Below, piece after piece: positions 1,901 through 30,100 of a stretch of DNA of 64,000 bases. The stretch covers positions 1 to 64,000 of the forward strand of contig CAJNOH010000668.1 in NCBI GenBank assembly GCA_905250005.1. Direction: 5' to 3'. The notes under the pieces were generated by a model. The model saw nothing but the letters and a program-made list of their open reading frames with translations, did no database searches and was not told the DNA's origin. The position numbers and the translations under genes were made by a program. The stretch's first letter is position 1. Each line of letters starts with the position of its first letter. Source of the stretch: Rotaria sordida (taxonomy: Eukaryota).

Positions 1901-4900
1901 ATGAAGCAAACTACGATATCTACTCCATTGCTGTCACCATTCAATGGCAAAACGATTGTACTCGAACTTGGTCGTGAAATAGGTTTCAAAGCTAAACAAG
2001 AACTTATAAATTATTTACGAGAACAAAAAGCATATATTTCATATATTCTTACAGCTAGTGTATGTTATTCTTTCATATGCTACGAACACGCTGCTATTGT
2101 TGACTATTTATTTTTTAGACTGATTATGTTTTAATCACGAATAATGTAGATAGCTACAAGACACGTCGTGCGAAACAACTTGGTTTGCCACTAGTTAATG
2201 TTGAATATGTGTATGAATATCGTCGCTTGCCGCCTGGTCAAACATCGATCGATATAAGTAAATTTATCATCAAGTCAATTGAAGATCAAGAAAATTTTAC
2301 ACAGACTGGTACAATATCCATTACAGGTATATGAATGTCAACTTTTTAAAAATCATGTTGGAGATATTTATTCATTAGGATCTCGAACAAATGCAATCAA
2401 AATCAATAAATTTGATTTAACTAAAATCAAAATATGGAATTCAGACGATATTAATTTACCTCGTTTCGATGAGTTAACTCATTGTGAAATTGGAAAATGG
2501 GCCATTTTTAAAGTACAGTTCTATTCTTTTCTAGCTCTTATTTTTTTCTTATACATCTAATGTTCGTAATAGGAAACCAATGATAATTCAAATGTGTACT
2601 TTGTTCTTGAACTTCAAGTCATTCCTGAACAATACTATGATCGAATAACGAGTGATTATCGATTACGATTTCGTTATGAAAAACAAACTATTGTTAACGA
2701 TGGACAACAGCAAAATAAAAAAGTATTGATACAATATGCATTCAGTGATGATCCAAATGAACAGCAACAATTATTTGCCACGTATTATCATCGAGTAGCT
2801 ACAATGTCACGTGTAACACGAATTCGTGAGATGTTACCTGATAAATTAGGATCAAAATTATTATTACGTGTATGTTAAACGAGAAATAGTTTTTCAACTA
2901 AAAATAATTATTTTTAGTCTTTATTTACTCATCGTATCGATACACAAATACTTGATGAGAATGCATGTCAATTAATTGAATCGATTTGGTTAGAATCAAT
3001 TGGTGATTTGAATAAAATTTTGAGCGTACCACCTGAATCAATTACTCTCAAAACAGTATATTTATCCATTTTTCTATATTTAAATTTATTTTATTCCTTA
3101 TCTATTAAATAGATTATCGAAGCTGAAGCTGCACTACTTGAATTGAAAACGACTAATGATCCTCGTGCTGCACTTCGTTTCTATTCACTTATTCCTCATC
3201 GGTCACAATATACAGTTGATCTAATAAAAAATCGTCGAGTATTAACAGAAAAAATTGATTTATGTCAAGTATGTCTATTTTGTTTAATGATTTAATTTAA
3301 TTGTTCGCGTTCGTTCAGATGCTTCGAGACATGCTTACAGTCAATGAACTAACTAATTGGAATGTTAAAGCACCGATTGAAGCGAAATATCGAGCATTGA
3401 AATGTCACATTGAAACTATTGATAATTCAACACCTGAATTTAATAGTATTGCTGAATTGATTCAATCGTCAACAGATAAGTGAGAACAATTGAAGTTTGA
3501 TTTTATAATGATAACTTTGATTTTTTTATTCATTAGTGGTAAACAAATTGTTATTCATCAAATATTCAATGTAACTAAACAAATCGATGCACTTAATTTT
3601 TGCACATCTCTATCAAATCAACGACAATTATTTCATGGATCAAAATATGCTAATTTTCTTGGAATTCTTTCACGGTAAAACATTTATTTCATTTTCTAAA
3701 TAATATTTATAGTACAATTATGTATATTCAGTGGTTTAGCAATGCCAAAAATGGTAGTTGAAGAATTAGGTGTCGTACGTACTGATATTGGTTGTCTTGG
3801 TTATGGACTTTACTTTTCTGATTCTGCTTCTACATCTTTAAAATATACAACAGCAAGTACAACACGACCTGGTAGACGATTGTTATGTATTTGCCAAGTA
3901 GCACTAGGTGAATCAGCCAATTATTATTCATTTGCACCAACTCTCGTCAAACCTCACGATGGTTTTCATAGTACACATGGAGTCAAAAGAACCGAAGAAA
4001 ACAATTCAATGTTTACCGTAGGTACATTATTAGTAAAAAGAAAGTTTTCGAGTGTCCTACGAGTTAAGAAGATGATATAGGAGAAGATTTCGTACAAGTT
4101 GAAGTAAATACGTAATGAAAATTCCTCCCAGTTTGATATATATATAGAATAGATTTGAAATAAAAATTCGACAATTGATCTCGATTTCATAATTTGTTGT
4201 GTAATTATCAAAATAGGATAATGAATATGCAATCTATCAACTTGATCAACAACGTTTACTCTACATTGTGGAAGTTTCATGGGCACCGAACGATACTCTC
4301 AATATCGAATTTGAACGATTGCCAATTATTCATCATCAACAACATGCACTAAAATTAAGTGAACATGGTAATGATAATTAAATAGTTTTTGTTAAAATGA
4401 AATTCAATTAGATTATTCTGTTACATTCTAGTTGAAGTTCCAATGACAATTGAAGATGAAGTCATTGAAATAGCCGAACAAGACTATGGTTTAATAAATC
4501 CATCATCGGGAAAACTTGTACCACTTAAATCATTTCATATTCGTGCTCAAATTGTTGATACTACAGTTGAGGTAAATATATATATCGATCATTTCTCATG
4601 AAAGTCACACTAAAATTTATCATATTTCTTTTTTTAATATGAAAAAAAAAGGTTGTTCTCTATCAAGTCTATCACAATACGAGTTCGATACCAATTGAAG
4701 CTAAATATGTATTTCCTCTTGATGAAAATTCAACTGTATGTGGTTTCGAAGCACATATCAATAATAAAATTATTAAAGGTGTTGTCAAAGAGAAAGAACA
4801 AGCTAAACAAGAATATCGAGAAGCAATCGAAAAAGGACATGGTGCTTATTTGATGCATCAAGAACAAGCTCAAGTATTCAGTGTAGCTGTTGGTAATTTA

Positions 4901-12000: not shown

Positions 12001-13440
12001 TGTCATTAGATTTCTGATGAATACAATGTGGATTCATTTAGATTTGGAAACTTCTGCTGCTCCTCCTCCACCACCCCCTCCACCACCTCCTCCTCTACCA
12101 ACAACAACAGCAACAACATCATCATTTTTACTTGATAATTTCGACCAGGCTTTCGTCGGTGGTAGCAGCGTTTCAAATCAAAGTAAGACTGAAATTTTCT
12201 TTTCTTTGTATCCATATTATCCGTTGTTTGGATTAAATTTTCTCGTAGTATTGCTTTTATATATTATCTTGTTCGAACGAAAAACACAGTTGAACGTACC
12301 AAAGAAAAATAGTGTTACAAACATGTTTGCTTGTCGTGAGGATCTCGAAGTAACATTAAGTACCATAGGTTCATTTGCATGTCACCTACGTTGTTAGCCG
12401 AATATTGCAATCAAATGTTTCACTTCAAAATACAAAACACGTACATAGTGCATGTTCGATTAATTATTTATGAGATTTTGTTTATTTTTATTTATTTATT
12501 TAAAACTTCCGATATGAGCGTATGTGTAATCGTTAGTCAAATAATTAGTTGAATAGTAACCATAAAAATCAAAATCTTTGAGTATAAATGTACTTTCGAG
12601 GCTAATCTGCAGCAAGTTTGCCATTTGAACAGTCAATATCATCCAAACATAAAAAGCTATAACACGAATGATTTTTCATCAACGTCCTTTACGTTTTCAC
12701 ATGAGAAGAATTAGCAATGATGAAAACTTTTGGCGATACTATCATTAATTCATTGCCAGTTATGTACGTTAGACATATTACTTTCTAATTTGATGTTCAT
12801 TTTAGGTAGCGAATCAGCAGATCGACTCAAACGGGACGAACTCTTGGACGATATTTCAAGTTGCATTGCTCCTTCTTCGCTTTCTATAGCATCACCCAAA
12901 AAGTCATATCCAACAGTATCGCTAAAAATGAAAGCGGCAACAGATGAACCTCGTAGTAGTCGTGGTGGTTGTATGGGATCTTCAACAGCAGCAACACAGT
13001 CAGCGATAAGCACTAGTAAGTTACACTCACATGAACTTCTTGTTTATCTCGATTAATAAAACGTGAATATATGTACAATTTCAGAAGCTTCGCCACGTGG
13101 TCGTACATATGGTAAGCTATTTGAAATAACTCACTCATATATTCTACTTTTTCTTCTACAGATGAAGATAAATTGCTTGAAACGAGGTGTAGGAACAAGA
13201 TAAAAGCAAAGTTTCAAGACTTCGAAGTATGTACATTAACATGTAATTTTTTGTTCGGGAATTTCATTCATTTCTAGAAGCAAGATGATGATGATAAAAA
13301 GGCAAGTTTCTTATCTAGCGAGACAACACTGAGCTCTATAGTTGGTAAAAGAAAAAATGTCGAAACGTAAGTTTTAACATATATCAAGTAGATGAACTAC
13401 GATTAATTATTAATCATCTAAATTTAGCCTTCAATCAAAA

Positions 13441-14031
13441 ATGAAAGAAGTTCCAACATCCAACACATCTATATGTGATCTCCTTCTTCTCGATGTCTGT
13501 CCGCTTGGTTTCGGCATTGAAGATATTCATGGTCAAATGCATACACTTATTCGTCGCAATACAACAATCCCAACACGTACACAATTCTATTCAGTGTTCA
13601 CAAATGCTTATGCCTATCAAACAACAGCTACCATTCGTATATTTGAAGGTGAACATAATCTTACAAAATACAATGTATGTGATGTTCGAAATTCAACATT
13701 TTTTTTTTCGATAACTTTTTCTATTGTAGACACTCTTGGGCGAGTTTAGTCTTTCTGGTCTGACAACTAATTATGCTGCTCAGACACTCGAAATCTCTAT
13801 TCGCATGGATCTTGATGCTAATGGTATACTTCATGTTGATGCTGAAGAAGCACGTTCGGCTGCCAAAGCTTCCTTTAATTTCACACCTAATAATCAACAA
13901 AGTACAATAATTATATAACTGTTTGATATTGTAATTAAATCCTATTTATATTTATATAGGATTGACAGCAGATGATATTGCGCGACATATTACATATGTT
14001 AATAGTGACCCACGTTTTACAGCTAAATCGG
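13441..14031 (+). CDS. Hsp70 substrate-binding-domain (SBD)-like exons, at least 3. No Hsp70 ATPase/nucleotide-binding domain is detectable upstream.
   Basis: Translation LLLDVCPLGFGIEDIHGQMHTLIRRNTTIPTRTQFYSVFTNAYAYQTTATIRIFEGEHNLTKYN / TLGRVSLSGLTTNYAAQTLEISIRMDLDANGILHVDAEEARS / DRLTADDIARHITYVNSD parallels canonical Hsp70 [56 protein letters not shown]...[38 protein letters not shown]...GRLSKEEIERMV. Upstream exons (12780-13370) are low-complexity. Downstream exons to ~14970 were not assigned. Confidence 0.65.
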
Positions 14032-15251: not shown

Positions 15252-15616
15252 CTGTAGCTGAACGTTGGAATAAGAATGAGAAGTAAAAATATTTCCACAA
15301 ATTGGTAAAACTCCCATGGATTTATTCAAATTTTCTTTCCTGAGCAACGTATGATTGGACTATCTGTATTTCGAAAAGTATTTTGCTATCTTGTGCAACG
15401 AATGAACATTGAAACCAGATTGCTCCTCCGTCAACAATGACAGCGCAGAAACACACAGCAACTTCAGGTGCTACTACAAGTGAGCACGCCATATTTTCTT
15501 CTCTCTTATCTGAGTTTTTTCCTTTCTGCTATCTAATCGACGGCATAGTGGGTGTGTCCACACAACGCAAGTAGTTGCATTTTTTTCTACGTGCGTGAAT
15601 AAAAAAAAGAAGAAAG

Positions 15617-15989
15617 ATGACTAGCAGCGGTGGCATCGGCTTTGCTATGGCACAAGCCGTGCTCATCAAGAAGCATGATCTTAGCCGCGCTGGAGGCTGC
15701 ATCATTCTGACCACCGGCGTGTCCATTGATCATTTGCCACCGGGGGTTAACCATGGATGCTGGTGTGGACGGGATCATCGTCGCACTCGTGCGCGCTCTC
15801 GCCGTGGATGTGACATCCAAGGTGCGGGTCTGCGGCGTCAGCTCCGGACCCGTGCTCACCAAACTGTGGGATAACGTCGTCCAGGAACAGACGGAGCGCC
15901 AGGCTCTCATAAACTACTATGAGACGAAGACGCTTACGGGGCGTGTGGCTAAGCCCGAAGAGACGGTCGAGGCTTATCTCACGACTTAA
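15617..15989 (+). pseudogene. GC-rich (~60% GC) fragment of a bacterial-type short-chain dehydrogenase/reductase (SDR). Truncated or internally deleted, with a frameshift near 15760.
   Basis: Frame 1: TSSGGIGFAMAQAVLIKKHDL...IILTTGVSIDHLPPGVNHG. This looks like the SDR Gly-rich TGxxxGIG region and the strand leading to the active site. Frame 2: GVDGIIVALVRALAVDVTSKVRVCGVSSGPVLTKLWDN...TKTLTGRVAKPEETVEAYL. This matches the SDR xAxKAGVxGLTRALAxDL...RVNxVSPGxVxT...GRxGxPEExAxAxxFL C-terminal half. The total is only ~124 aa against ~250 for an intact SDR. Base composition contrasts sharply with the ~30% GC flanks. Confidence 0.6.
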
Positions 15990-16899
15990 CATTTATGTAA
16001 TACGCTGATGTAGAATGAAATACTAATATTCATTTTCTTTTCTGGAAGAAAGAGTTTTTCAAACGTAAAGTGTTTGTGTGTCTATCTGTCCAACCAATCA
16101 GAAAGTAGTATTTTTCGGAAATGCAATAAGCTAAGCTTCCCAATGGAACGTATGCCATTCTATTTAACTCTGATATTTTGTAAGGATGTTTTTTTCTGAA
16201 TAACTTCGTTTAGCATAGACATATTTAAAAATATCAGCTTTTTCAGATATCGTTAGAATAAAATTAATTAATTAAGAAGTAATTAACGAATATCTTTCTA
16301 ATCATATGAGAAAAATTTCAAAAATTTTAGGATAGACTGTACGACACGACCTATATTTTACGGTGAAATTTCTAGCAAGATTGGACTCCAAAAATCTCCC
16401 TCATAAAACTGGCTCTCTAAGATTCCTATCAAGCTTTGAAAAAAAAAATTTTCGTCTTATGATAATGTGCAGACCCTGAAGGATTTGTACCATTTGAATT
16501 ACGCCGCAAACAAATGATTTTGTTTATATATGGGTATATAAACTCTTCACTCGTTGTTGCGTACATTCATTTCTTCATTCATTCTATTTGGTCATATAAA
16601 TTAGTGCTGCTCTTTATTTTTGTTTTTCAGGAATCGATCGAGGGGTGCAGAATCTGTCAGAGATTCCCTGGAACAGACAGAAAAGCATAGCAAATTTTCC
16701 CCAACCTGTAAAATGTATGAGCCAAGAGGAAAAACTGATTCATAGTGCTAGAAATTACTGTCAATTATCAGAAATCACTAATAATCACTGTAATGCGTTA
16801 AGGATACACAAAAATGACTTGACGTGGTTAGAAACTACTGGAGGCCATCTGAAATCATTGATAACTATTGAATATCACCAATAATAAGGTCAAAAAGTG

Positions 16900-17140: not shown

Positions 17141-18630
17141 GGAGTATTGTCTGTTTGTCGATACTATATCGAACTCTATTTCAAGCTTTCTTTTCCTTCT
17201 CCAATTTTCTCCGAGAGCTCAGTTTTTCTCGTGAATGTCGTTCCAGCCTACAGACAGATTCTCCACTCCTGAATGAATCTTATATTGAAATTGAATAATA
17301 CCAAAATAGTGTCTCCGTAAATAAAGATGAATGCACCATGAGTTGACTAATTCAAATTCGAATATAAATGAAGACTGAACAGTATAATTTGAATTCGAAA
17401 ATAACTGCAATCGTCATCTGAAGTGAGATGGATATTTCATTGTCAGTTCAGAATTAGAATTAGTTTTTTTCCACGCAAATTCGAGTTCACGTGGACAAAA
17501 ATTAATTCTAATTCTGCTCTTACAATGATGTATATACCGCGGTTCGAATTCAAATTGAAAGCATCTGAATCTTAATATGAAGCTGGTTCTGATTCTATTA
17601 CAGGCTGTGGTCTTACAGTTGTTCGAAAAATCTGAATTATATTCGAACTCGAATGAGACAACTACTCTGAATTTCCATGTCAATTGACTTGCATTATCAC
17701 GAGAATAGATTTAATAAAGACGACAAAGAACAACAAAAGCAAGTTGGACAAAGAAATTCATAAGATAATGTACGAATATTTATTATACAAAACTAGCTTC
17801 TTCTTGATTAACATCGACAAAATAAACGCGAACTTCGATACGATTCGTATCAATATCTAAAAAAGAAAAGTCAACCAAGCCATTCATTCGATAAGATTTC
17901 TCATCATTTATTGAAAATGTCATTCGATGCCAGATTCTACGATTATCTGAAGTAACAATCGCTTTATCATGTTTATAATGATTTGATGTGAACACATTCA
18001 CTAATCGATATTTTTGCATTGCATGTTCTAATTCAATTTGAAACAAGAGCTATTCAACGAACTATCATCTTCAGATTGATATCGAAATTGATTGATTTAC
18101 TTCAGTATGAGTATTGACATTCTATGGAAGATGAACACAGAATCGATAAACTTTTTTACAGTATAAAATTTGAACTCGATAAATTTGATTTAAGTCGAAT
18201 TTTTCCATTGGAATAACTTAAAAAAACTGAAATATTCCTTGATGAAATCAGATTCTTATCTGATACATTTCTGCATAGGCATATCGTTCCATCGATGAGA
18301 TTCAACAATACAAAAAATGTTTTATCACTTCGAAATAGTGTTTCTACAAATCAAACGATTAGATCAAAGAAATCGTTTTATTTGAGTTCACTAGTGATAA
18401 CAAAGAAATACTACATGTTTTACAGAAAAATCAAAATACATCTTTAGAAGAAAAGAAATGATTAATTAACCAATTAGATGATGAAAGAAACGTTACAATC
18501 GGTCTGTGATATTGTTCAAATTTCTTTCAAGTGTCGATTTCTGTTGTTAAAGTTGTTTTTAATAACCTTTGTATACTAGAGAAATCTGGTTGGTTGTATT
18601 CAAAGCAGTTTCTAGAACAATGGTTCTGAG

Positions 18631-19632
18631 CAGGGATGCCACCTCTTCCGCTTTTTGCGGAAAGTTTCCGCTTTTTCACCTTTTTTCCGCTATTTTTCCG
18701 CTGTTCCGCTTTTTTCCGCTTTTTGATATAAAAAGGTGATGTGTTTTCAAAATACGTACAGAGCAAAACTTATTATTGTCGAATAAAGTCTTACTGTTTA
18801 CGTATCCAGTTAATCATCACTCTTATTATGTCATTCATAAAATCAATGGACGAACACAAAGCTTTTCTATGTTAGAGGGATTGTGCACTAATTGTCTGTT
18901 TGAGAATTTAAAATATCATTCTGCTTCCAATTGATAGTTAACTCCTTTTCAACTTATTTTGCCTATTGTATGTACGCAAAATAATCTCGAATCCAAAAAT
19001 TTAAATGTTTTTTAATGATCTACAGATATTGAGATTACAAATTAAGATGAAACAGATCGTGAGAATTTAATAACAGCATCACCAATTCTGAAATCAAATG
19101 AAAATAAAAATGTTGAAGCCATACTAGGTAGTTATCAAAAGAGAAAAAAAGGCATGTTTAATCCACAATGGCTACTTAGTCCTCAGTTCGCATCATTTTT
19201 ACGAGAGTATAAACCAGATTCAGCTAAAGTTCTTTGTATTGCCTCTAATGAACATTTTTCAGTACAGGACGGTGGAAAAAATACCATTGATCGTCACATA
19301 AAGTTGAAAGACACAACAACAACATAAAATCATTTCGTATAAATCGACAATTGATAACATTAACTATCAAATCTAACAAGGAGGTTGAAAAAAAACAGCA
19401 GCTGAAGAAGGTACTTTCGTATACCATGGAGTGAAGCATAGTCATTCTTATTCATTTCAACAATATTTTATGTTTTGCAATTTTGTTAAAATAAAAGCAG
19501 AATGCTATAGATATGAAAAACACTCAAAATTCTCATAAATGCTAAAAATCCGCGACGAAATAAGTTTCCGCTTTTTTTCCGCTTTTCTAAGTTAATTTTC
19601 CGCTTTTTCGACTTCATGAGGTGGCATCCCTG
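18631..19632. mobile_element. Non-autonomous hAT-like DNA transposon (~1.0 kb). It has 15-bp terminal inverted repeats CAGGGATGCCACCTC, an 8-bp target-site duplication GTTCTGAG, and subterminal TTTCCGCTTTTT repeats at both ends. No transposase ORF.
   Basis: Left end 18623-18645: gttctgag|cagggatgccacctc. Right end 19618-19640: gaggtggcatccctg|gttctgag. The TIR begins CAGGGATG as in Ac/hAT elements, and an 8-bp TSD is the hAT hallmark. Multiple ttccgcttttt(t) subterminal repeats lie within ~90 bp of each end. The internal ORFs (79 and 66 aa) have no similarity I recognise. Confidence 0.65.
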
Positions 19633-21266
19633 GTTCTGAGAGATAGTTTCAAATGAAAAACTTCAAAAGTATTAGAAATTTGGAAGAAAGAGAATGATAT
19701 ACAAAATTGTTGGTCAGTTTTAGATCATATCATCACAAATTGTCATCGAATCTCTGTAGTATATTCTTGCTGCTATTTCTCAATCATTTCTGCAGTTTTT
19801 CAAGTGAATCGACCATGTATTATTGGATTATATCATGATTCAATATCTTTTATATTGAAATTATTATTGAATATCATTACTTTTGTAATCTCTTGGAAGA
19901 AAAAAATAAATCTCAACATGATCGAGTATAAAAACTGAAAACATAAAGAAGAATAAAGGGACAATTAATGATGAGAGTATTATAGTCTTTGATGTATTCA
20001 TGCATAATGCCTTGAAAATGTAAAACTATTCATAGAAGCCATATACGATCTTTTTTCTTTGTTACTATACCAATGAAGTCACCGTAAAATGAACAAATAC
20101 TGCGATTAAAATTTAACCTTTTCAAACGTATGTTTAGAAGAAAAAAAAAAGAGTCATTATAAATATAATCTCTCAATATTATTTTTATTAAAATAACGAA
20201 TGAAACATAGAAAGAATACTAATGAGCTTTATAGAAAGAAAATTTTCTAAAATGTAATGTGCAATGAGAATGGACTAAAAGTAAAATCAAGAATGACAGA
20301 AAAGCATTAATACTCTTCTTTTATTGAATTTAATAGTAATAATTTTTTGTTAAATAGATTATTAATATAAAATAAAAGAAGAGTACGTTTGATATAAAAT
20401 AACTGGGAACATTACTTCACATTTTGTTCATAAATTAAATATCAGTAAATAAAAATAATTAATATCTAATTAAATTAATGCGTAGTAATAAAAATTAAAA
20501 CTCGATCTTGTTAATGACTTTTTACTATATTGAATTCTTCAATTCGAAGAACACTTTCATTCTAGAGATGTCCATCGCGTTTGAGAATCTACTGTCGCAA
20601 TGACACTATGAAAATCTCTTCCGCATCGCGATGATTTCTGAAAAAAAATCTGTCGTTGACACGACGCCATCGTCACGGCTGCAGCTTCGTCATGGACATC
20701 TAACTTAACTATGTTGAACACGTATTTTTAAGTGAACAAGATACAACTATCAATATTATTATAATAAAAGGTGAACTGAAATTTATGTTTGTAGAAGGTT
20801 TACACATAATATATTTCATTTTTTTCAATGATTTCTTCTGTGACAAAAAGAAAGTTTTTTTTCATAAATTTGATATAATATTTTAAAATAAGGCTTTGTT
20901 CTTGCATTATAGTCATATCTAAAGTAAATAATCATAACGCAGTGCATGTTGTTGTTTGAATATAGTAAATAATGTTTCACAAGTGACGTCTTTATAATAA
21001 TGATGACGTACTAAGAAAAAAAAAACGTCAAAAATTCCAGATATATTAGTAATATTCTCTTATACTGTCTTACTATTATTTAGTCAATGACTATAATCGT
21101 TCAAGTACTAACTTTAACTGCATCATACTAATGCTGAATAAAAGAATTCTTATCATACAATGAAGAGAAATGTTAAAGAGATGTTATCTATGTAGAAATC
21201 AACAAAAAAAATATATTTATATATAACGAAGAGCATTCATACACGTCAAAGAAGAAACACAAAACA

Positions 21267-24335: not shown

Positions 24336-25286
24336 ATGGCATCATCTATTATTTCATCATTTGCTTTTGCTGAACAACAAATAACCATATATTTGGGCAT
24401 ATTCATTCTCTTCGGAGGTGTCCTTGGTGGACTTCTCAATATCACTGTTTTTCTGAGTCTCCAAACGTTTCGACAGAGTTCATGTGCATTTTATTTAACT
24501 GTGATGTCAGTTGTCAACATTGGTCAATTGATTACAGGTCTGCTCAGTCGTATAATGATCACTGGATTCGGCATTGACTGGACCCAAATGTCTCTGTTCT
24601 ACTGTAAAATTCGCTCGTACTGCATTATAACCTCTGCACTGATCTCCTTGAGTTGTTTTTGTTTGGCAACAATTGATCAATACTGGGCCACTTGCTCTTG
24701 TCTCCGATGGCAACGGTGGAGTAATATCAAGCTAGCTCGTCAACTGTCAGCAATCACTGTTCTCATTTGGATTCTTTTCAATATTCCATATTTCATTTAT
24801 TCCAACCATATTGTGTCAGCTACAACGGGCCGAGTGACTTGTCAGATTACAAATAATGTCTTTCAACAGTTCTCAACCTATGGAATAAATGTCACTTTTA
24901 CAAGAATTTTGCCTGTCAGTATATCATTCTTGTTAGGAGTGTTGGCCTATCGCAATGTGGAACAACTTGCTTATCGAACAGTGCCGATTGTTCGACGTGA
25001 GTTAGACAAACAATTGACAGTGATGGTTCTTGTGCAAGTTGTCGTTACTTTCTTTACAATTGTTCCATATAGCATTATAAATATTCTATTAACGATTTCT
25101 AACCTCACAACAGATCCGATCATTAGAGCGGAGCTTCAGTTCATATCTACTTTGTTCATGTGCATATTTTACATGAATTTTGCGGTAAGGATACGTATAT
25201 TATGGAGTCATCTGAAAAGTGAACTTGTGTTTAGAGTCCATTCTTCATTTATTTTTGTGTGTCAGATCGATTTCGTCGACAACTGA
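24336..25286 (+). CDS. Seven-transmembrane rhodopsin-like G-protein-coupled receptor. Essentially a single exon, with a possible short 3' intron at ~25186.
   Basis: 316-aa ORF with seven hydrophobic helices. TM1 is followed by GGLLNITVFLSL, TM3 ends ...LATIDQYWA (DRY-like position), and a basic third intracellular loop reads RNVEQLAYRTVPIVRRELDKQLTVM. The spacing matches class-A GPCRs. Confidence 0.65.
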   Translation: MASSIISSFAFAEQQITIYLGIFILFGGVLGGLLNITVFLSLQTFRQSSCAFYLTVMSVVNIGQLITGLLSRIMITGFGIDWTQMSLFYCKIRSYCIITSALISLSCFCLATIDQYWATCSCLRWQRWSNIKLARQLSAITVLIWILFNIPYFIYSNHIVSATTGRVTCQITNNVFQQFSTYGINVTFTRILPVSISFLLGVLAYRNVEQLAYRTVPIVRRELDKQLTVMVLVQVVVTFFTIVPYSIINILLTISNLTTDPIIRAELQFISTLFMCIFYMNFAVRIRILWSHLKSELVFRVHSSFIFVCQIDFVDN

Positions 25287-27129
25287 GATATGTGGTCTTC
25301 GAAATTCATCTCCAAAAATATCGACGACAAGAAATTGTTATAAATCAAGGCACCCCAGAAAATGTGTGAACGTCGCTTAGAAAATCTTTCATAACAATTG
25401 AAAACAGCACAGTTGTTTTTTTGTTGTAATTGTATTAAAGAAATTTATTTGTAATTTGTCGTCTATCAGTGATCAATAAATATCTCTATGTTCGACTTAG
25501 AAGAAAAGTAGACTTTAGATTTCTTCTGTAATCTCTGTAACAAAAAAATTTTTACGCTCCGACAAAAATCTTCGATTATCAACAGAAATATACATGCAAA
25601 CATGTTTTATATGAGAGAATTTACGACGTGAAACTCTGAACATCCTAGGTGTCTTCGGGTAAAATGATGTTCAAGCGCTGCTTTCTTACATTTACCTAAA
25701 AACAATGCCTACAAATGGCCATCCAATATGCGTTTTTTTTTTCTGCTGAAGGTGTGTAAAAACAGCGTTTATCAAGATCCTGTAATTTAAGGGAACCTGA
25801 ATATTTTTGTCTCATTTACAATACGTCCAAGCTAGACAACAATGACCAGACAAATTGTCTAAAAATGTTCGGTCGCTAGTAATCTAACTGATGTTGTGTA
25901 AAGATGTTCAACTATTTCTGTTTCTTTAGATTGTTCGGTGGATTGAAAACCAATCTCTTCAGGTACTCGTTTTGTCAAAAGAGATATAATAGAAGCGGTT
26001 GAGGTTTTTTTTAAGGCAAACTATATGAAAATGTTTAGGTTATGTAAATTTACACTATAATCGACACTCATATGGCCTTTACACAAAGAGAAAAATATAT
26101 TCTGTTTTTTTCCTTTCTACGTTCAAGTGTAGCAGCAAGCCTTGACTGTACTATACGTTGAGATCAATTATAGCTCTCTTTTCAGTAAATATGACACAAT
26201 CTCACAGTGTCAAATAAAAATCATATGTAAACAATTCCAGGTTTCATCTTTTCTGAGTTAAGAACAAGTTAAGAAAATGATAAAAGATCTCACTGTTTAA
26301 GATCTATGTGTCAATCATATCTCGGTCCCAGTACGCCATGAGCCCGAGTCCTTTTGGGTTTTTCTTAGTCTCAGTGAGCCCTACTTGTAGCCAAAATATG
26401 GAGTCAAACGGCGTTGGACAGTTGGATATGTTTTCTCGTTAACCAGTTCGAGCAATGAGAACATCTCGAACTGATTTATCGACTAACACAATACGACGAA
26501 CGGCTTTTGACTTTAAGTATGTAAATCTTTTTCACTTCTTCTATTATTCAAAGAAAATCTTGAAATCATAAAACTATTTTGTCACCTTAAATTTTTATGA
26601 AATAACCAATGTTTTTACTTTGTCCACTTTTAGATGATTATTTGACCAATAGTCGAAACGCGTCGTATGGTGCTTTGAATCTATTCGATGAAAACTCACC
26701 ATCACACCTTCACCCTTACCATAAAAGACAAGTGTTGAAAGAAATAGCCAATTTGGGGTTGAAGACATGTTTTTTCCTTCAACATGCTTCTTCGAAACTT
26801 TCAGCGTGCCCTAACAACTTTTTAGAGAAATGAGAACGATTTACCGTTCAATGCATCATCATAGAGACAAAATATGAGAGAATCAGCATTAAAAGCCTAT
26901 AATTTGATCTAGTCAAAAAATATATACTCCTATTTTAGTCAATGAGGATTAACGCCAAAAACATCAACGAGACTTGTAAAATAAAGACATAGAAAGAGTA
27001 TAAAATGCTCATTTTATTTAATGCGAAAAACATATTATAAACTTGTTTTATTTTAAAGAAAAATTGTTTGAAAAGTGCTGCATTATTTTTGCAAAATATT
27101 GCATTAATACCAAGTCAATTATGAACATT

Positions 27130-30100
27130 ATCGGTACACAAACAAGACTTCTGTTCAACTCTTCCGCTCACCTCCAACCAAACATTACTACTCGCTCTTA
27201 TCATCGAACTCCACATCACAAACAAACATCCACCAAGACACTTCTGTTCGTCCCTTTTGCTCACTTTGAACCATACCTTGCCACTCCCTCTCGTCATCGC
27301 ATACAACGTCGCAAAGGAACATTCATTATCAGACTTCTGTTCACCTAGTTTGCCAACTTCCAACCAAACGCTGCCACTCACTCTCATCATCGGGCATTAC
27401 ATCATAAATGCACATGCATAATGATACTTTTGTTCACCTTTTTTGCTCATTTCCAACTAAACGTTGTCACTCGCTCTCATTATCTAATATTACACCACAA
27501 AGGAACATTCATAATGATATTTGTGTTCACCTATTTTACTCAATTCAAACCCAACGTTGTCACTTCCACTCATCATCAAACATCACATCACAATCAAACA
27601 TTGATAAGCAGAATTCTATTCACCTTTTTTGCTCACATTGAGTCAAACATTCCCAATCACTCTCATCATCGTACATCATATCACCAACAAACATTCATAA
27701 TGATACTTTTGTTTACCTCTTTTGCTCATTTCGAACCAAACATTGCCGTTCACTTTCATCATCGAACATCACACTACAAATGAATATTACTCATAACACT
27801 TCAGTTCGCCTCTTTTGCTCACTTCGAACCAAACATTGCCATTCACTCTCATGATCGAACATCACATTACAAACGAATATTACTCATAAGACTTCAGTTC
27901 ACCTCTTTTGCTTATTTCGAACCAAACATTCCTATTCACTCTCATCATGGACCATCACATCACAATCGAATATTCATAACCAGAACTCTTTTCCCCTCTT
28001 TTACTCAATTCGACGCAAATGTTGCCACTCAGTGTCATCAACGAACATCACAGCACAACCGAACATTCATTATCAGACTTCTGTTCACCTCTTTTGCTTA
28101 CTTCAAGCCAAACGTTGCCACTCACTCTTATCATCTAACATCGCCTCACAAACGAACATTCATAAGCAGAATTCAGTTCACCTCATTTGCTCACTTCAAA
28201 CCAAACGTCACCGCTCTCTCTCATCATCGAACATCACACCATAAACGGACATTCTTCACCAGGCTTTTGTTCACCTCTTTTCCTCACTTCAAACCAAATG
28301 TTGCCACTCATTCTCATTATCGAACACCACACTACAAACGAACATTACTCAAGATACTTCCGTTCACCTCTTTTGCTCACTTAGAATCAAACCTTGTCAC
28401 TCTCTCTCATCATCGAACACCACATCACAAACGAACATTCATTATCAGAATTCTGTTCAACTAGTTTGGTCACTTGAAACCGAACGTTGTCACTCACTCT
28501 CATCATCGAACATTACATCATAAATGAACATTCATAATGATACTTCTGTCCATCTCTTTTGTTCACTTTGAATCAAACCTTGCCATTCACTCATCATGGA
28601 ACATCACATTGCAAATGAACATCCATAAAAAGGCTTCTGTTCACCTAGTTTGTTCACTTCGAATTGAACGTTGTCACTCATTCTCATCATCAAACATTAC
28701 ATCTTAAACGAACATTCATAATGATACTTTTGTTCACCTCTTTTGCTCATTTCGAACCAAACGTTGGCACTCACTCATCATCGAATATCACATCACAAAC
28801 GAACATTCAGCAATATATTTCTGTTCACCTCTTTTGCTCACTTCGAACTAAATATTGCCATTCACTCTCATCATGGAACATCACATCACAAACGAACATT
28901 CAAAAGCAGAATTTTCTTCATCTGTTTTGCTCACTTTGAACCAAACGTTGCCATTCACTGTCATCATCGAGCATCACATCGCAAACAGACATGCATAAGC
29001 AGAATTCTGTTCACCTCTTTTGCTCACTTCGAACTAAACATTGCCATCCACTCTCATCATCGAACATCACATCACAAACGATCATGCAGAAGCAGAATTC
29101 TGTTTACCTCTTTTGCTTACTTCGAGCCAAATGTTGCCACTCACTCATCATCGAATATCACATCAGAAACGAACATTCCTCAAGATACTTCTGTTCACCT
29201 AGTTTGCTCATTGCGAACCAAAGGTTGCTATTCACTCTCATCATTGAACGTCACATCACAATCGAACATTCATTATCAGAATTTTGTTCGCCTCTTTTAC
29301 TCACTCCGAACGAAACGTTTTCACTCACTCTCATCATCGAACATCACGTCACAAACGAACATTCATTATCAGATTTCTGTTCACCCCTTTTGCTCAGCCT
29401 GAACCAAACTTTGCCAGTCACTCTCATCATCGAATATCACATCATAACCAGACATTCATCACCAGACTTCTGTTCACTTCTTTTTCTCACTTCGAACCAA
29501 ATGTTGCCACTCATTGTCATCATCAAACATCACATCACAAACGAACATTCATTATCAGATTTCGGTTCACCTCTTTTACTCACTGCAAACCAAACATTGC
29601 CACTCACTCTCGTCAACGAACAAGACACCAGAAACGAAGATTCATCAATATACTTTTGTTCACTTCTTTTGCTCATTTCGAACCAAATGTTGCCACTCGC
29701 TGTGATCATCGAACATCACATCATAAACAAACATTCATGAACATACTGCTGTTCACCTTTTTTTACTCACTTCGAACCGAACGTTGTCACTCAATCTCAT
29801 CATCGAACATCACATCGCAAACGAACATTCCTTACAATACTTCTCTTCACTTCTCTTGCTCATTTCGAACCAAACATTGTCACTCACTCGCATCATCGAA
29901 AATCACGCCACAAACGAATATTACTCAAGATACTTGTATTCACCTAATTTGCTCACTTTGAATCATAGATTGCCACTCACTCATCATGTAATATCACATC
30001 ACAAACGAATATCCATAAAAAGACTTCTGTTCGCCTCTTTTGCTTGCTTCGAATGAAACCTTGCCAGTCACTCATCATCGAGCATCACATCACAAACGAA

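What the first reader, a model, noticed from the sequence alone, without database searches (positions are those of the whole stretch)
18623..19640. Ac-like non-autonomous hAT element with intact 8-bp TSD
Perfect 15-bp TIRs CAGGGATGCCACCTC/GAGGTGGCATCCCTG are flanked by a perfect direct 8-bp GTTCTGAG. The TIR starts with the CAGGGATG of maize Ac. The perfect TSD and TIRs indicate recent mobilisation, implying an active hAT transposase somewhere in the genome. TTTCCGCTTTTT subterminal repeats (5 left, 3 right) would be the transposase binding sites.
Basis: seen in the sequence. Interest (0 to 1): 0.55.

Follow-up and report, generated by a model that had tools for sequence, protein, structure and literature searches.

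The report
Deleted hAT transposon copy in rotifer
This is a 1-kb internally deleted, non-autonomous copy of a hAT-type "cut-and-paste" DNA transposon in the bdelloid rotifer Rotaria sordida; the call is correct, but it is an ordinary mobile element of a kind already known to be recently active in these animals.

Summary
There are perfect 15-bp terminal inverted repeats at 18631-18645 and 19618-19632, a perfect 8-bp duplication GTTCTGAG on both sides, and subterminal TCCGC repeats found nowhere else in the 64 kb.

The window is Rotaria sordida, a bdelloid rotifer. The same 1-kb element, with identical boundaries and the same internal deletion junction, sits at other loci with different flanks. 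These are in R. sordida, in Rotaria sp. Silwood1 and in one metagenome contig (88-99% identity).

It is collinear with about 2.9-kb elements in R. socialis and Rotaria sp. Silwood2. Those elements encode a roughly 700-aa, four-exon transposase with a hAT dimerisation domain. The Silwood2 copy is open in all four exons. About 1.9 kb has been deleted from the window copy, leaving a decayed zinc-finger fragment.

The duplications seen across the family fit the Ac/Hermes target pattern nTnnnnAn, not the Buster pattern.

So the hAT, non-autonomous and Ac-type calls are supported. Three things are not shown:
- No active transposase of this subfamily was found in R. sordida. Only a sister family with changed repeat sites (TCCGA) was found intact there.
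- No empty-site allele could be searched for.
- Several copies in short-read assemblies lack duplications.

This is a new member of a known kind, of low interest.

The parts
18623..18630 (.). Left copy of the 8-bp target-site duplication, GTTCTGAG
   Evidence: Identical to 19633-19640. Fits nTnnnnAn (T at position 2, A at position 7).
18631..18645 (+). Left terminal inverted repeat, CAGGGATGCCACCTC
   Evidence: 15/15 complementary to 19618-19632. Homology to every other copy starts exactly here.
18646..18724 (+). Left subterminal repeat array. TCCGC cores start at 18647, 18667, 18686, 18697, 18705 and 18715. One inverted core (GCGGA, 18657-18661) makes the quasi-palindrome TTCCGCTTTTTGCGGAA at 18646-18662.
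   Evidence: Spacing is about 10 or 20 bp. The offsets are conserved in the R. socialis and Silwood2 long elements. The first 94 bp are 92.6% identical to R. socialis, against 74% for the interior.
18725..19045 (+). Remnant of the region upstream of the ancestral transposase gene (5' untranslated region or promoter). The ancestral start codon is lost here.
   Evidence: Collinear with L007 upstream of its ATG at 1717. The stop-free frame begins only after TAA at 19043-19045.
19046..19327 (+). Decayed remnant of transposase exon 1, the N-terminal BED-like zinc finger. It is a 93-codon open stretch in which the second zinc-binding Cys is replaced by Ser (CIASNE). A 1-nt deletion ends the frame at KLKDTTTT*.
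   Evidence: 38 and 97 homologues, nearly all from Rotaria. Frame comparison with other copies.
19328..19464 (+). Frameshifted continuation of exon 1 (AAEEGTFVYHGVKHSHSYSFQQ in another frame), running up to the deletion breakpoint.
   Evidence: Left homology to L007 ends at window 19464, which equals L007 2176.
19465..19548 (+). Remnant of the region just downstream of the transposase stop codon. The junction at 19464/19465 marks a deletion of about 1.88 kb.
   Evidence: homology resumes at about L007 4057; all five short copies share this junction.
19549..19617 (+). Right subterminal repeat array. TCCGC cores start at 19549, 19567, 19578 and 19599, all on the + strand.
   Evidence: The core 29 bp from the right end is kept in every copy, and in the sister family at 28 bp as TCCGA; the 50-bp core is kept in four of the five short copies and as TCCGA in the sister family.
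19618..19632 (-). Right terminal inverted repeat, GAGGTGGCATCCCTG
   Evidence: Homology to the other copies ends exactly here.
19633..19640 (.). Right copy of the target-site duplication, GTTCTGAG

Best explanation
Window 18631-19632 is a non-autonomous member of a Rotaria-specific hAT transposon family. It is a Ds-like internal-deletion derivative.

**Origin.** A roughly 2.9-kb autonomous element has short inverted ends, arrays of TCCGC repeats inside each end, and a four-exon gene for a roughly 700-aa transposase. That transposase has an N-terminal BED-like zinc finger, an RNase-H-like DDE core and a hAT C-terminal dimerisation domain. One copy lost about 1.88 kb, from codon ~153 to just past the stop codon. 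The loss probably happened during gap repair after excision.

**Spread.** The stump kept everything needed in cis, and transposase supplied in trans moved it to new sites. Here it was pasted into a GTTCTGAG target in gene-poor DNA, and repair of the staggered cut duplicated the 8 bp.

**How it probably works.** By analogy with Hermes, several zinc-finger domains of a multimeric transposase would bind the helically phased TCCGC sites. The quasi-palindrome next to the left terminus would be part of this. The catalytic core would cut at the CAG termini.

**Shown:** identity, boundaries, deletion origin, multiple loci, superfamily.

**Inferred:** the binding role of the repeats, the repair origin of the deletion, and how recently it moved.
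For: **1. Real structure.** See the observation check.

**2. Other loci.** The same element is present with the same boundaries, different flanks and no shared flanking sequence.
- L001, R. sordida: 99.25% identical.
- L009, metagenome contig: 98.6%.
- L006, R. sordida: about 90.8%, with its own perfect duplication GTCTCCAT.
- L003-5 and L012, Silwood1: L012 has a 7/8 duplication.
- Sources.

**3. One origin.** All short copies share one deletion junction, so one derivative spread by transposition.

**4. Long relatives.** The element is collinear with long elements.
- L007, R. socialis: 2964 bp, perfect duplication GTGCGAAT.
- L013-15, Silwood2: 2925 bp, 100% identical to each other, different flanks, all four exons open.
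- Sources.

**5. Superfamily.**
- Dimer_Tnp_hAT scores 27.9 bits (R. socialis) and 32.1 bits (the R. sordida sister family), against a cut-off of 21.4.
- A family profile hits Hermes transposase 4D1Q at E=0.004. That alignment matches SIPCSNAFVESVFS to Hermes SIPASSAASERTFS.
- An AlphaFold model of the sister-family transposase P0050 has pLDDT 73.8. Its 12 best PDB matches are all Hermes, E 2e-10 to 1e-7.

**6. Target pattern.** The five duplications in the family have T at position 2 in 4 of 5 and A at position 7 in 5 of 5. None has TA at positions 4-5. nTnnnnAn is the Hermes preference (PMC10368747) and nnnTAnnn is the Buster preference (PMC3517528).

**7. Conserved ends.** The ends are more conserved than the interior: 92.6% and 86%, against 74%.

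**8. Repeat sites.** The offsets are conserved, and a sister family has TCCGA at the same offsets.

**9. Coding remnant.** It is a pseudogene: start codon lost, Cys replaced by Ser, frameshift.
Against: - No full-length copy of this subfamily was found in R. sordida. The search went through annotated proteins only, so absence is weak evidence.
- Both R. socialis long copies carry one nonsense mutation each.
- L001, L003-5, L009 and the sister-family L010 have no duplication at all, and L013-14 show none either. This is probably mis-joining at a repeat in short-read assemblies. L007 and L008 are the same locus in two assemblies and diverge exactly at the element's right end. Real rearrangement is not excluded.
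- No empty-site allele could be looked for.
- The zinc finger matches Pfam zf-BED only below threshold (E 0.014-0.02).
Confidence: 0.93

Rival explanations
1. The element has the same identity but is a dead fossil. It moved in the past, and no transposase able to move it is now made in R. sordida.
For: - Among 97 homologues, the only R. sordida proteins close to this subfamily come from short copies (P0045, P0080, P0081).
- The long R. socialis copies each have a nonsense codon.
- A copy about 9% diverged from the window copy (L006) still has a perfect duplication, so perfection is no proof of youth.
Against: - The window copy is 99.25% identical to a copy at another locus. It has only 3 private substitutions in about 930 bp.
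- An intact long copy exists in a congener, as 100% identical copies.
- Nowell et al. 2021 report that many bdelloid DNA-transposon copies have 1% divergence or less (PMC7943196).
- Transposons are often masked before gene calling, so a protein-based search can miss them.
Confidence: 0.4
2. The element is moved by the transposase of the sister hAT family that is intact in R. sordida. That family is represented by P0050 (713 aa) in a 3187-bp element, L010.
For: - P0050 has an open four-exon gene, a hAT domain at 32.1 bits and a Hermes-like fold.
- Its inverted repeat, CAGGGATGCCAGATC, shares the first 11 bases with the window element.
- Its repeat sites sit at the same offsets.
Against: - Every subterminal site differs at the same base: TCCGA against TCCGC.
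- The zinc-finger region is only about 40% identical.
- That pattern looks like a specificity switch that separates subfamilies.
Confidence: 0.12
3. The inverted repeat plus direct repeat is a coincidence, or the segment was copied by segmental duplication or recombination rather than by transposition.
For: Several copies lack duplications.
Against: - Shuffles gave 0 of 30 hits at 12 bp.
- Homology among copies begins and ends exactly at the inverted repeats, and flanks are unrelated.
- There are three independent perfect 8-bp duplications, with a chance of about 1 in 65,000 each.
- The long relative encodes a hAT transposase.
Confidence: 0.01
4. It belongs to another 8-bp-duplication superfamily, such as P elements, or to the Buster branch of hAT rather than the Ac branch.
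For: - The zinc finger weakly resembles the Spin-doc finger (E 0.002-0.06).
- Hermes is the only hAT transposase that appeared among the solved-structure matches, so those matches cannot tell hAT branches apart.
- The P element transposase is a distant fold hit (E 0.024).
Against: - The hAT dimerisation domain scores above the cut-off.
- Hermes matches are 8 orders of magnitude better than the P element match.
- No duplication has the Buster TA core.
- The Tip100 branch remains possible, because its target preference is undescribed (PMC3942097).
Confidence: 0.05

Closest known systems
Maize Ds elements, the internal-deletion derivatives of Activator (Ac); also the hobo deletion derivatives and the Drosophila BuT2 short copies described in PMC3942097
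   Same: - The derivative arose by internal deletion of an autonomous hAT element.
- It keeps both termini and the subterminal repeats and loses the transposase.
- It has 8-bp duplications and spreads to new loci using transposase made elsewhere.
- The first eight terminal bases, CAGGGATG, equal those of Ac (recalled from memory).
   Different: - The host is an asexual bdelloid rotifer.
- The repeat motif is TCCGC, not Ac's AAACGG-type motif (Ac's motif recalled from memory).
- The repeats point the same way at both ends.
- No autonomous partner has been found in the same genome so far.
Hermes from the housefly, the structurally solved hAT transposon (PDB 4D1Q, 8EDG, 8SJD; PMC10368747)
   Same: - A related rotifer transposase is predicted to share the Hermes fold.
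- The target pattern nTnnnnAn is the same.
- Short repeats lie inside the ends and are arranged asymmetrically between left and right.
- A quasi-palindromic pair of sites sits right after the left inverted repeat. In Hermes, two BED domains bind such a pair cooperatively.
   Different: - Protein identity is only 13-16%.
- The site sequence differs: TCCGC against AAG(T/C).
- Binding has not been tested here.
hAT-derived MITEs such as Mar in Drosophila willistoni (PMC3517528)
   Same: It is a short non-autonomous hAT derivative with conserved ends and duplications, and related full-length copies exist in relatives.
   Different: - Mar is a Buster-type element (nnnTAnnn) and lacks coding remnants.
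- This element is 1 kb, keeps a recognisable exon-1 remnant and has Ac-type targets.
- It is better called a deletion derivative than a MITE.

Membership tests
hAT superfamily (element level) | 8-bp target-site duplication | tested here: met
   Duplications found:
- Window: GTTCTGAG, perfect.
- L006: GTCTCCAT, perfect.
- L007: GTGCGAAT, perfect.
- L012: 7 of 8.
- L015: TTCCGAAT.
- Sources.

Several short-read-assembly copies lack one.
hAT superfamily (element level) | Short inverted termini (10-25 bp) beginning with the hAT-type CAG / YARNG motif | tested here: met
   The termini are 15 bp and perfect, and start CAGGG. The length range is from PMC3942097. The YARNG consensus is from my own knowledge.
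hAT superfamily (protein level, tested on the long relatives) | hAT C-terminal dimerisation domain (Pfam PF05699) | tested here: met
   - P0046 and P0039, from the element collinear with the window copy: 27.9 and 26.8 bits.
- P0050: 32.1 bits.
- The curated cut-off is 21.4.
- The window copy itself has lost this region.
hAT superfamily (protein level) | RNase-H-like DDE catalytic core with an inserted all-helical domain, plus the CxxH and RW motifs | tested here: met
   - Foldseek: the 12 best PDB hits are Hermes, E down to 2e-10 and TM about 0.6 relative to the target.
- The motifs DASN, GADNTNVN, CYCHILHN, RWLS and YVESIFS are present in the long copies.
- The glutamate and the CxxH motif aligned to Hermes by HMMER.
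- The two aspartates were assigned by motif only.
hAT superfamily (protein level) | N-terminal BED-type zinc finger | tested here: inconclusive
   - The long copies have a Cx2C...Hx5H pattern with upstream F and W.
- Pfam zf-BED scores only E 0.014-0.02, and the Spin-doc finger E 0.002-0.06. Both are below their cut-offs.
- The model shows a small beta-beta-alpha unit at residues 60-93.
Ac family of hAT (as opposed to Buster) | Target preference nTnnnnAn rather than nnnTAnnn | tested here: met
   T at position 2 in 4 of 5 and A at position 7 in 5 of 5. TA at positions 4-5 in 0 of 5. The sample is small. The patterns are from PMC10368747 and PMC3517528.
Ac family of hAT | Transposase groups with Ac, hobo and Hermes in a phylogeny | not tested
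   No reference transposase sequences were available to build a tree. Among solved structures only Hermes matched as a hAT transposase, so the fold match does not discriminate. The Tip100 group is not excluded.
Non-autonomous (deletion-derivative) element | Has the ends of an autonomous element but lacks a functional transposase gene | tested here: met
   - Collinear with L007 at 1287-2176 and about 4057-4250, with 1.88 kb missing.
- The remnant is only 93 codons, with a lost start codon, a Cys-to-Ser change and a frameshift.
Non-autonomous element | Mobilised in trans: several copies of the same derivative at unrelated loci | tested here: met
   Five or more loci share one deletion junction and have unrelated flanks.
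Currently active element | Presence/absence polymorphism, or a functional transposase source in the same genome | not testable with these tools
   - No DNA search of the R. sordida assemblies is offered.
- The nearest neighbouring gene (a receptor at 24336-25286) has no hit above 64% among the available proteins, so homologous contigs could not be fetched.

The most novel reading that the evidence does not exclude
The large share of family copies without any target-site duplication might be real rather than an assembly artefact. Two of those copies are 98-99% identical to the window copy. That would mean bdelloid rotifers often relocate or reshuffle DNA transposon copies by recombination or break repair between copies, not by transposition.

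Separately, the same-offset TCCGC to TCCGA change between sister families would be a clean natural example of a transposase and its binding sites switching specificity together.
Probability: 0.08. Interest if true: 0.5.

Novelty: new member of a known kind. Interest (0 to 1): 0.17.

Why it matters
Bdelloid rotifers are the classic long-term asexual animals, and theory predicts that their transposons should die out. A young-looking, precisely bounded non-autonomous hAT copy is one more concrete example of cut-and-paste elements having moved recently in this group. It has near-identical copies elsewhere in the species and an intact partner in a sister species. That general conclusion was already reached genome-wide by Nowell et al. 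2021 (PMC7943196). The family gives a well-defined substrate for transposition assays: ends, repeat sites and an open transposase gene from Silwood2. Beyond that it is routine repeat annotation.

Tried and rejected
- **Exact-protein look-up to identify the source contig.** The 761-aa TPR protein of the window had nothing on record.
- **Empty-site test through the neighbouring receptor gene.** The best homologue is only 64% identical, so no orthologous contig could be fetched.
- **'Full-length' candidates.** P0048 (528 aa) and P0081 (544 aa) turned out to be chimeric gene models that swallowed an exon from a short copy.
- **Metagenome scan.** A both-ends pattern found only one contig, L009.
- **Single-sequence search of solved structures with P0046.** It found nothing meaningful; a family profile was needed.
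- **Six-frame Pfam scan of the surroundings by DNA reference.** Open frames were read by eye instead.
- **Displaced duplications, scaffold gaps or shared flanks around the copies that lack duplications.** None were found.
- **Rfam scan of 18000-20300.** No match.
- **Arensburger et al. 2011.** The paper could not be opened. The target patterns were taken from papers that cite it.
Full report
**1.

CAGGGATGCCACCTC lies at 18631-18645 and its perfect reverse complement at 19618-19632. GTTCTGAG abuts both ends, at 18623-18630 and 19633-19640. The element is 1002 bp. No other good match to the terminus exists in the 64 kb.

A perfect inverted repeat of at least 12 bp flanked by a perfect 8-bp direct repeat occurs once in the window, and in none of 30 shuffles.

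TTTCCGCTTTTT-like 12-mers occur 8 times in the window against 0.76 expected. All of them lie within about 90 bp of the two ends.

Counting the core TCCGC gives a fuller picture:
- Left end: six direct copies at offsets 16, 36, 55, 66, 74 and 84, plus one inverted copy at offset 26.
- Right end: four copies at 79, 61, 50 and 29 bp from the end.
- Interior: none.

All direct copies are on the + strand, so the two ends are not mirror images. The inverted copy forms the quasi-palindrome TTCCGCTTTTTGCGGAA immediately inside the left terminus.

**2. Host and setting**

The window is AT-rich (27-40% GC) and has long intron-poor reading frames. Its 927-aa acyl-CoA ligase/reductase frame is 99% identical (825/836) to a Rotaria sordida protein. 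The source is therefore this bdelloid rotifer.

The insertion lies in a gene-poor stretch of about 12.4-24.3 kb that holds only fragments: an Hsp70 piece and a broken dehydrogenase-like patch. Removing the element and one copy of the duplication restores no long reading frame. Rfam finds nothing in 18000-20300.

**3. The interior is a decayed transposase fragment**

Frame 19046-19324 is a 93-codon open stretch. An exhaustive HMMER search found 38 relatives. A profile search found 97, nearly all from Rotaria species.

Intact relatives read ...GVFNPQWL..FLREYK.DSTKA.CIACNE.FS.H.GGKNDIDRH.K.K.H..., a Cx2C...Hx5H finger. The window copy is damaged in four ways:
- The ancestral start codon is lost.
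- There is a stop codon at 19043.
- The second cysteine is replaced by serine.
- A 1-nt deletion truncates the frame.

It is a pseudogene remnant.

**4. Other copies**

Contigs fetched through homologous proteins carry the same 1-kb element, and homology starts and stops exactly at the inverted repeats.

| Locus | Source | Identity to window copy | Flanking 8-mers |
|---|---|---|---|
| L001 | R. sordida | 99.25% | differ |
| L009 | metagenome contig | 98.6% | differ |
| L006 | R. sordida | about 90.8% | perfect GTCTCCAT |
| L003-5 | Rotaria sp. Silwood1 | about 90.5% | differ |
| L012 | Rotaria sp. Silwood1 | not calculated over the whole element (BLAST pieces 88-93%) | AGTACGAA / ACTACGAA (7 of 8) |

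Flanks of different loci share no similarity. L002, a 633-bp contig made only of element interior, suggests assemblers break at this repeat. The differences between copies are mainly gains and losses of repeat units in the subterminal arrays.

**5. Origin by deletion**

In R. socialis, L007 carries a 2964-bp element with termini CAGGGTTGCCACCTC, TCCGC arrays at the same offsets and a perfect duplication GTGCGAAT.

The window element aligns to L007 1287-2176 and then to about 4057-4250. The breakpoint is at window 19464/19465. About 1.88 kb is missing, from codon ~153 to just past the stop codon.

All five aligned short copies share this junction. One deletion derivative therefore arose once and then spread, across at least R. 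sordida and Silwood1.

The termini are better conserved than the interior: 92.6% over the first 94 bp and 86% at the right end, against 74% inside. That is expected for sequences required in cis.

**6. The encoded protein is a hAT transposase**

The long element has four exons and three short GT-AG introns, and encodes 706 aa.

- Pfam Dimer_Tnp_hAT scores 27.9 and 26.8 bits against a cut-off of 21.4.
- The motifs DASN, GADNTNVN, CYCHILHN, RWLS and YVESIFS are present.
- A family profile hits Hermes transposase at E=0.004, aligning the glutamate motif.
- An AlphaFold model of the R. sordida sister-family protein P0050 has mean pLDDT 73.8. Its twelve best solved-structure matches are all Hermes, with E down to 2e-10.
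- The BED assignment of the finger stays below Pfam thresholds.

**7. Is there a live partner?**

- L007 and L008 are the same R. socialis locus in two assemblies. Each has one CGA-to-TGA nonsense codon, at different places.
- In Rotaria sp. Silwood2, three assemblies hold 2925-bp copies that are 100% identical. They have different flanks and all four exons are open. This is an intact candidate autonomous element in the genus.
- In R. sordida itself, only short-copy-derived proteins of this subfamily were found.

R. sordida does have an open 713-aa transposase of a sister family, in a 3187-bp element (L010). Its terminus CAGGGATGCCAGATC shares the first 11 bases with the window element. Every one of its subterminal sites reads TCCGA, at the same offsets: 16, 36, 55, 66, 84 on the left and 50, 28 on the right. 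That concerted change argues the sites are read by the transposase, and it argues against easy cross-mobilisation.

**8. Target pattern**

The five duplications are GTTCTGAG, GTCTCCAT, GTGCGAAT, A(G/C)TACGAA and TTCCGAAT.
- T at position 2: 4 of 5.
- A at position 7: 5 of 5.
- TA at positions 4-5: 0 of 5.

nTnnnnAn is the Hermes preference (PMC10368747) and nnnTAnnn is the Buster one (PMC3517528). So 'Ac-type' is supported. The Tip100 group is not excluded, because its preference is undescribed (PMC3942097) and no tree was built.

**9. Mechanism by analogy**

In Hermes, BED domains of several protomers bind short subterminal repeats. A quasi-palindromic pair next to the left terminus is bound cooperatively, and the two ends are asymmetric (PMC10368747).

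The rotifer element has the same layout. Its sites are spaced about 10 or 20 bp apart, that is, on one face of the helix. This is inference and nothing was tested.

**10. What remains unexplained**

L001, L003-5, L009, L010, L013 and L014 show no duplication. No gaps, displaced repeats or shared flanks explain this.

The best clue is that L007 and L008 match up to the last base of the element and then diverge. That points to mis-joins at a multi-copy repeat in short-read assemblies. The L007 copy, from a newer assembly, and the window copy both have perfect duplications. Real rearrangement cannot be ruled out.

**11. Age and activity**

The window copy has 3 private substitutions in about 930 bp relative to its two closest relatives, so the insertion is probably young.

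Nowell et al. 2021 already reported that many bdelloid transposon copies, mostly DNA transposons, have 1% divergence or less (PMC7943196).

**Verdict**

The call is correct and well observed: a non-autonomous, Ac-type hAT deletion derivative. It is a new member of a known kind, and interest is low.

Noticed in passing
window 26000-30000: A strongly C-rich stretch (GC skew -0.3 to -0.49). It has overlapping long frames of a repetitive 'HHRTSHHKRTF..FTSFAHFEPNV' type, which looks like a tandem or minisatellite-like array.
   Followed up: no
window 15590-15990: A GC-rich patch in AT-rich DNA. Short-chain-dehydrogenase-like frames (SSGGIGFAMAQAV...) are split over two frames. It may be a decayed gene of foreign origin.
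   Followed up: no
window 13414-13746 (+): An isolated fragment of an Hsp70 substrate-binding domain ([33 protein letters not shown]), probably a pseudogene piece.
   Followed up: no
window 24336-25286 (+): A receptor-like (GPCR family 1) frame whose best database relative is only 64% identical, although the window is R. sordida. This stretch may be missing or unannotated in the published short-read assemblies.
   Followed up: partly
L001 6001-12070; L003 5001-7803: Public gene models (P0081 'pentapeptide repeat protein', P0048) include an exon taken from a short hAT copy, so they are chimeric annotations.
   Followed up: partly
L007 codon 177 and L008 exon 4: The two R. socialis assemblies of the same long hAT copy each carry a different single CGA-to-TGA nonsense mutation. 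These are independent C-to-T changes at CpG.
   Followed up: partly
L015 4896-4903 and 6416-6423: The same 8-mer, TTCCGAAT, follows the right end of one Silwood2 element and precedes the left end of the next one 1.5 kb away. This suggests an insertion in a tandem unit or a cyclic assembly path.
   Followed up: no
L013 1-443: A mariner/Tc1-type transposase gene lies about 3 kb upstream of the Silwood2 hAT copy.
   Followed up: no
L010 2561-5747: A sister hAT family in R. sordida has an open 713-aa transposase. Its TCCGA sites sit at the same offsets as the TCCGC sites of the window family. No target-site duplication is present in the two assemblies that hold it.
   Followed up: partly
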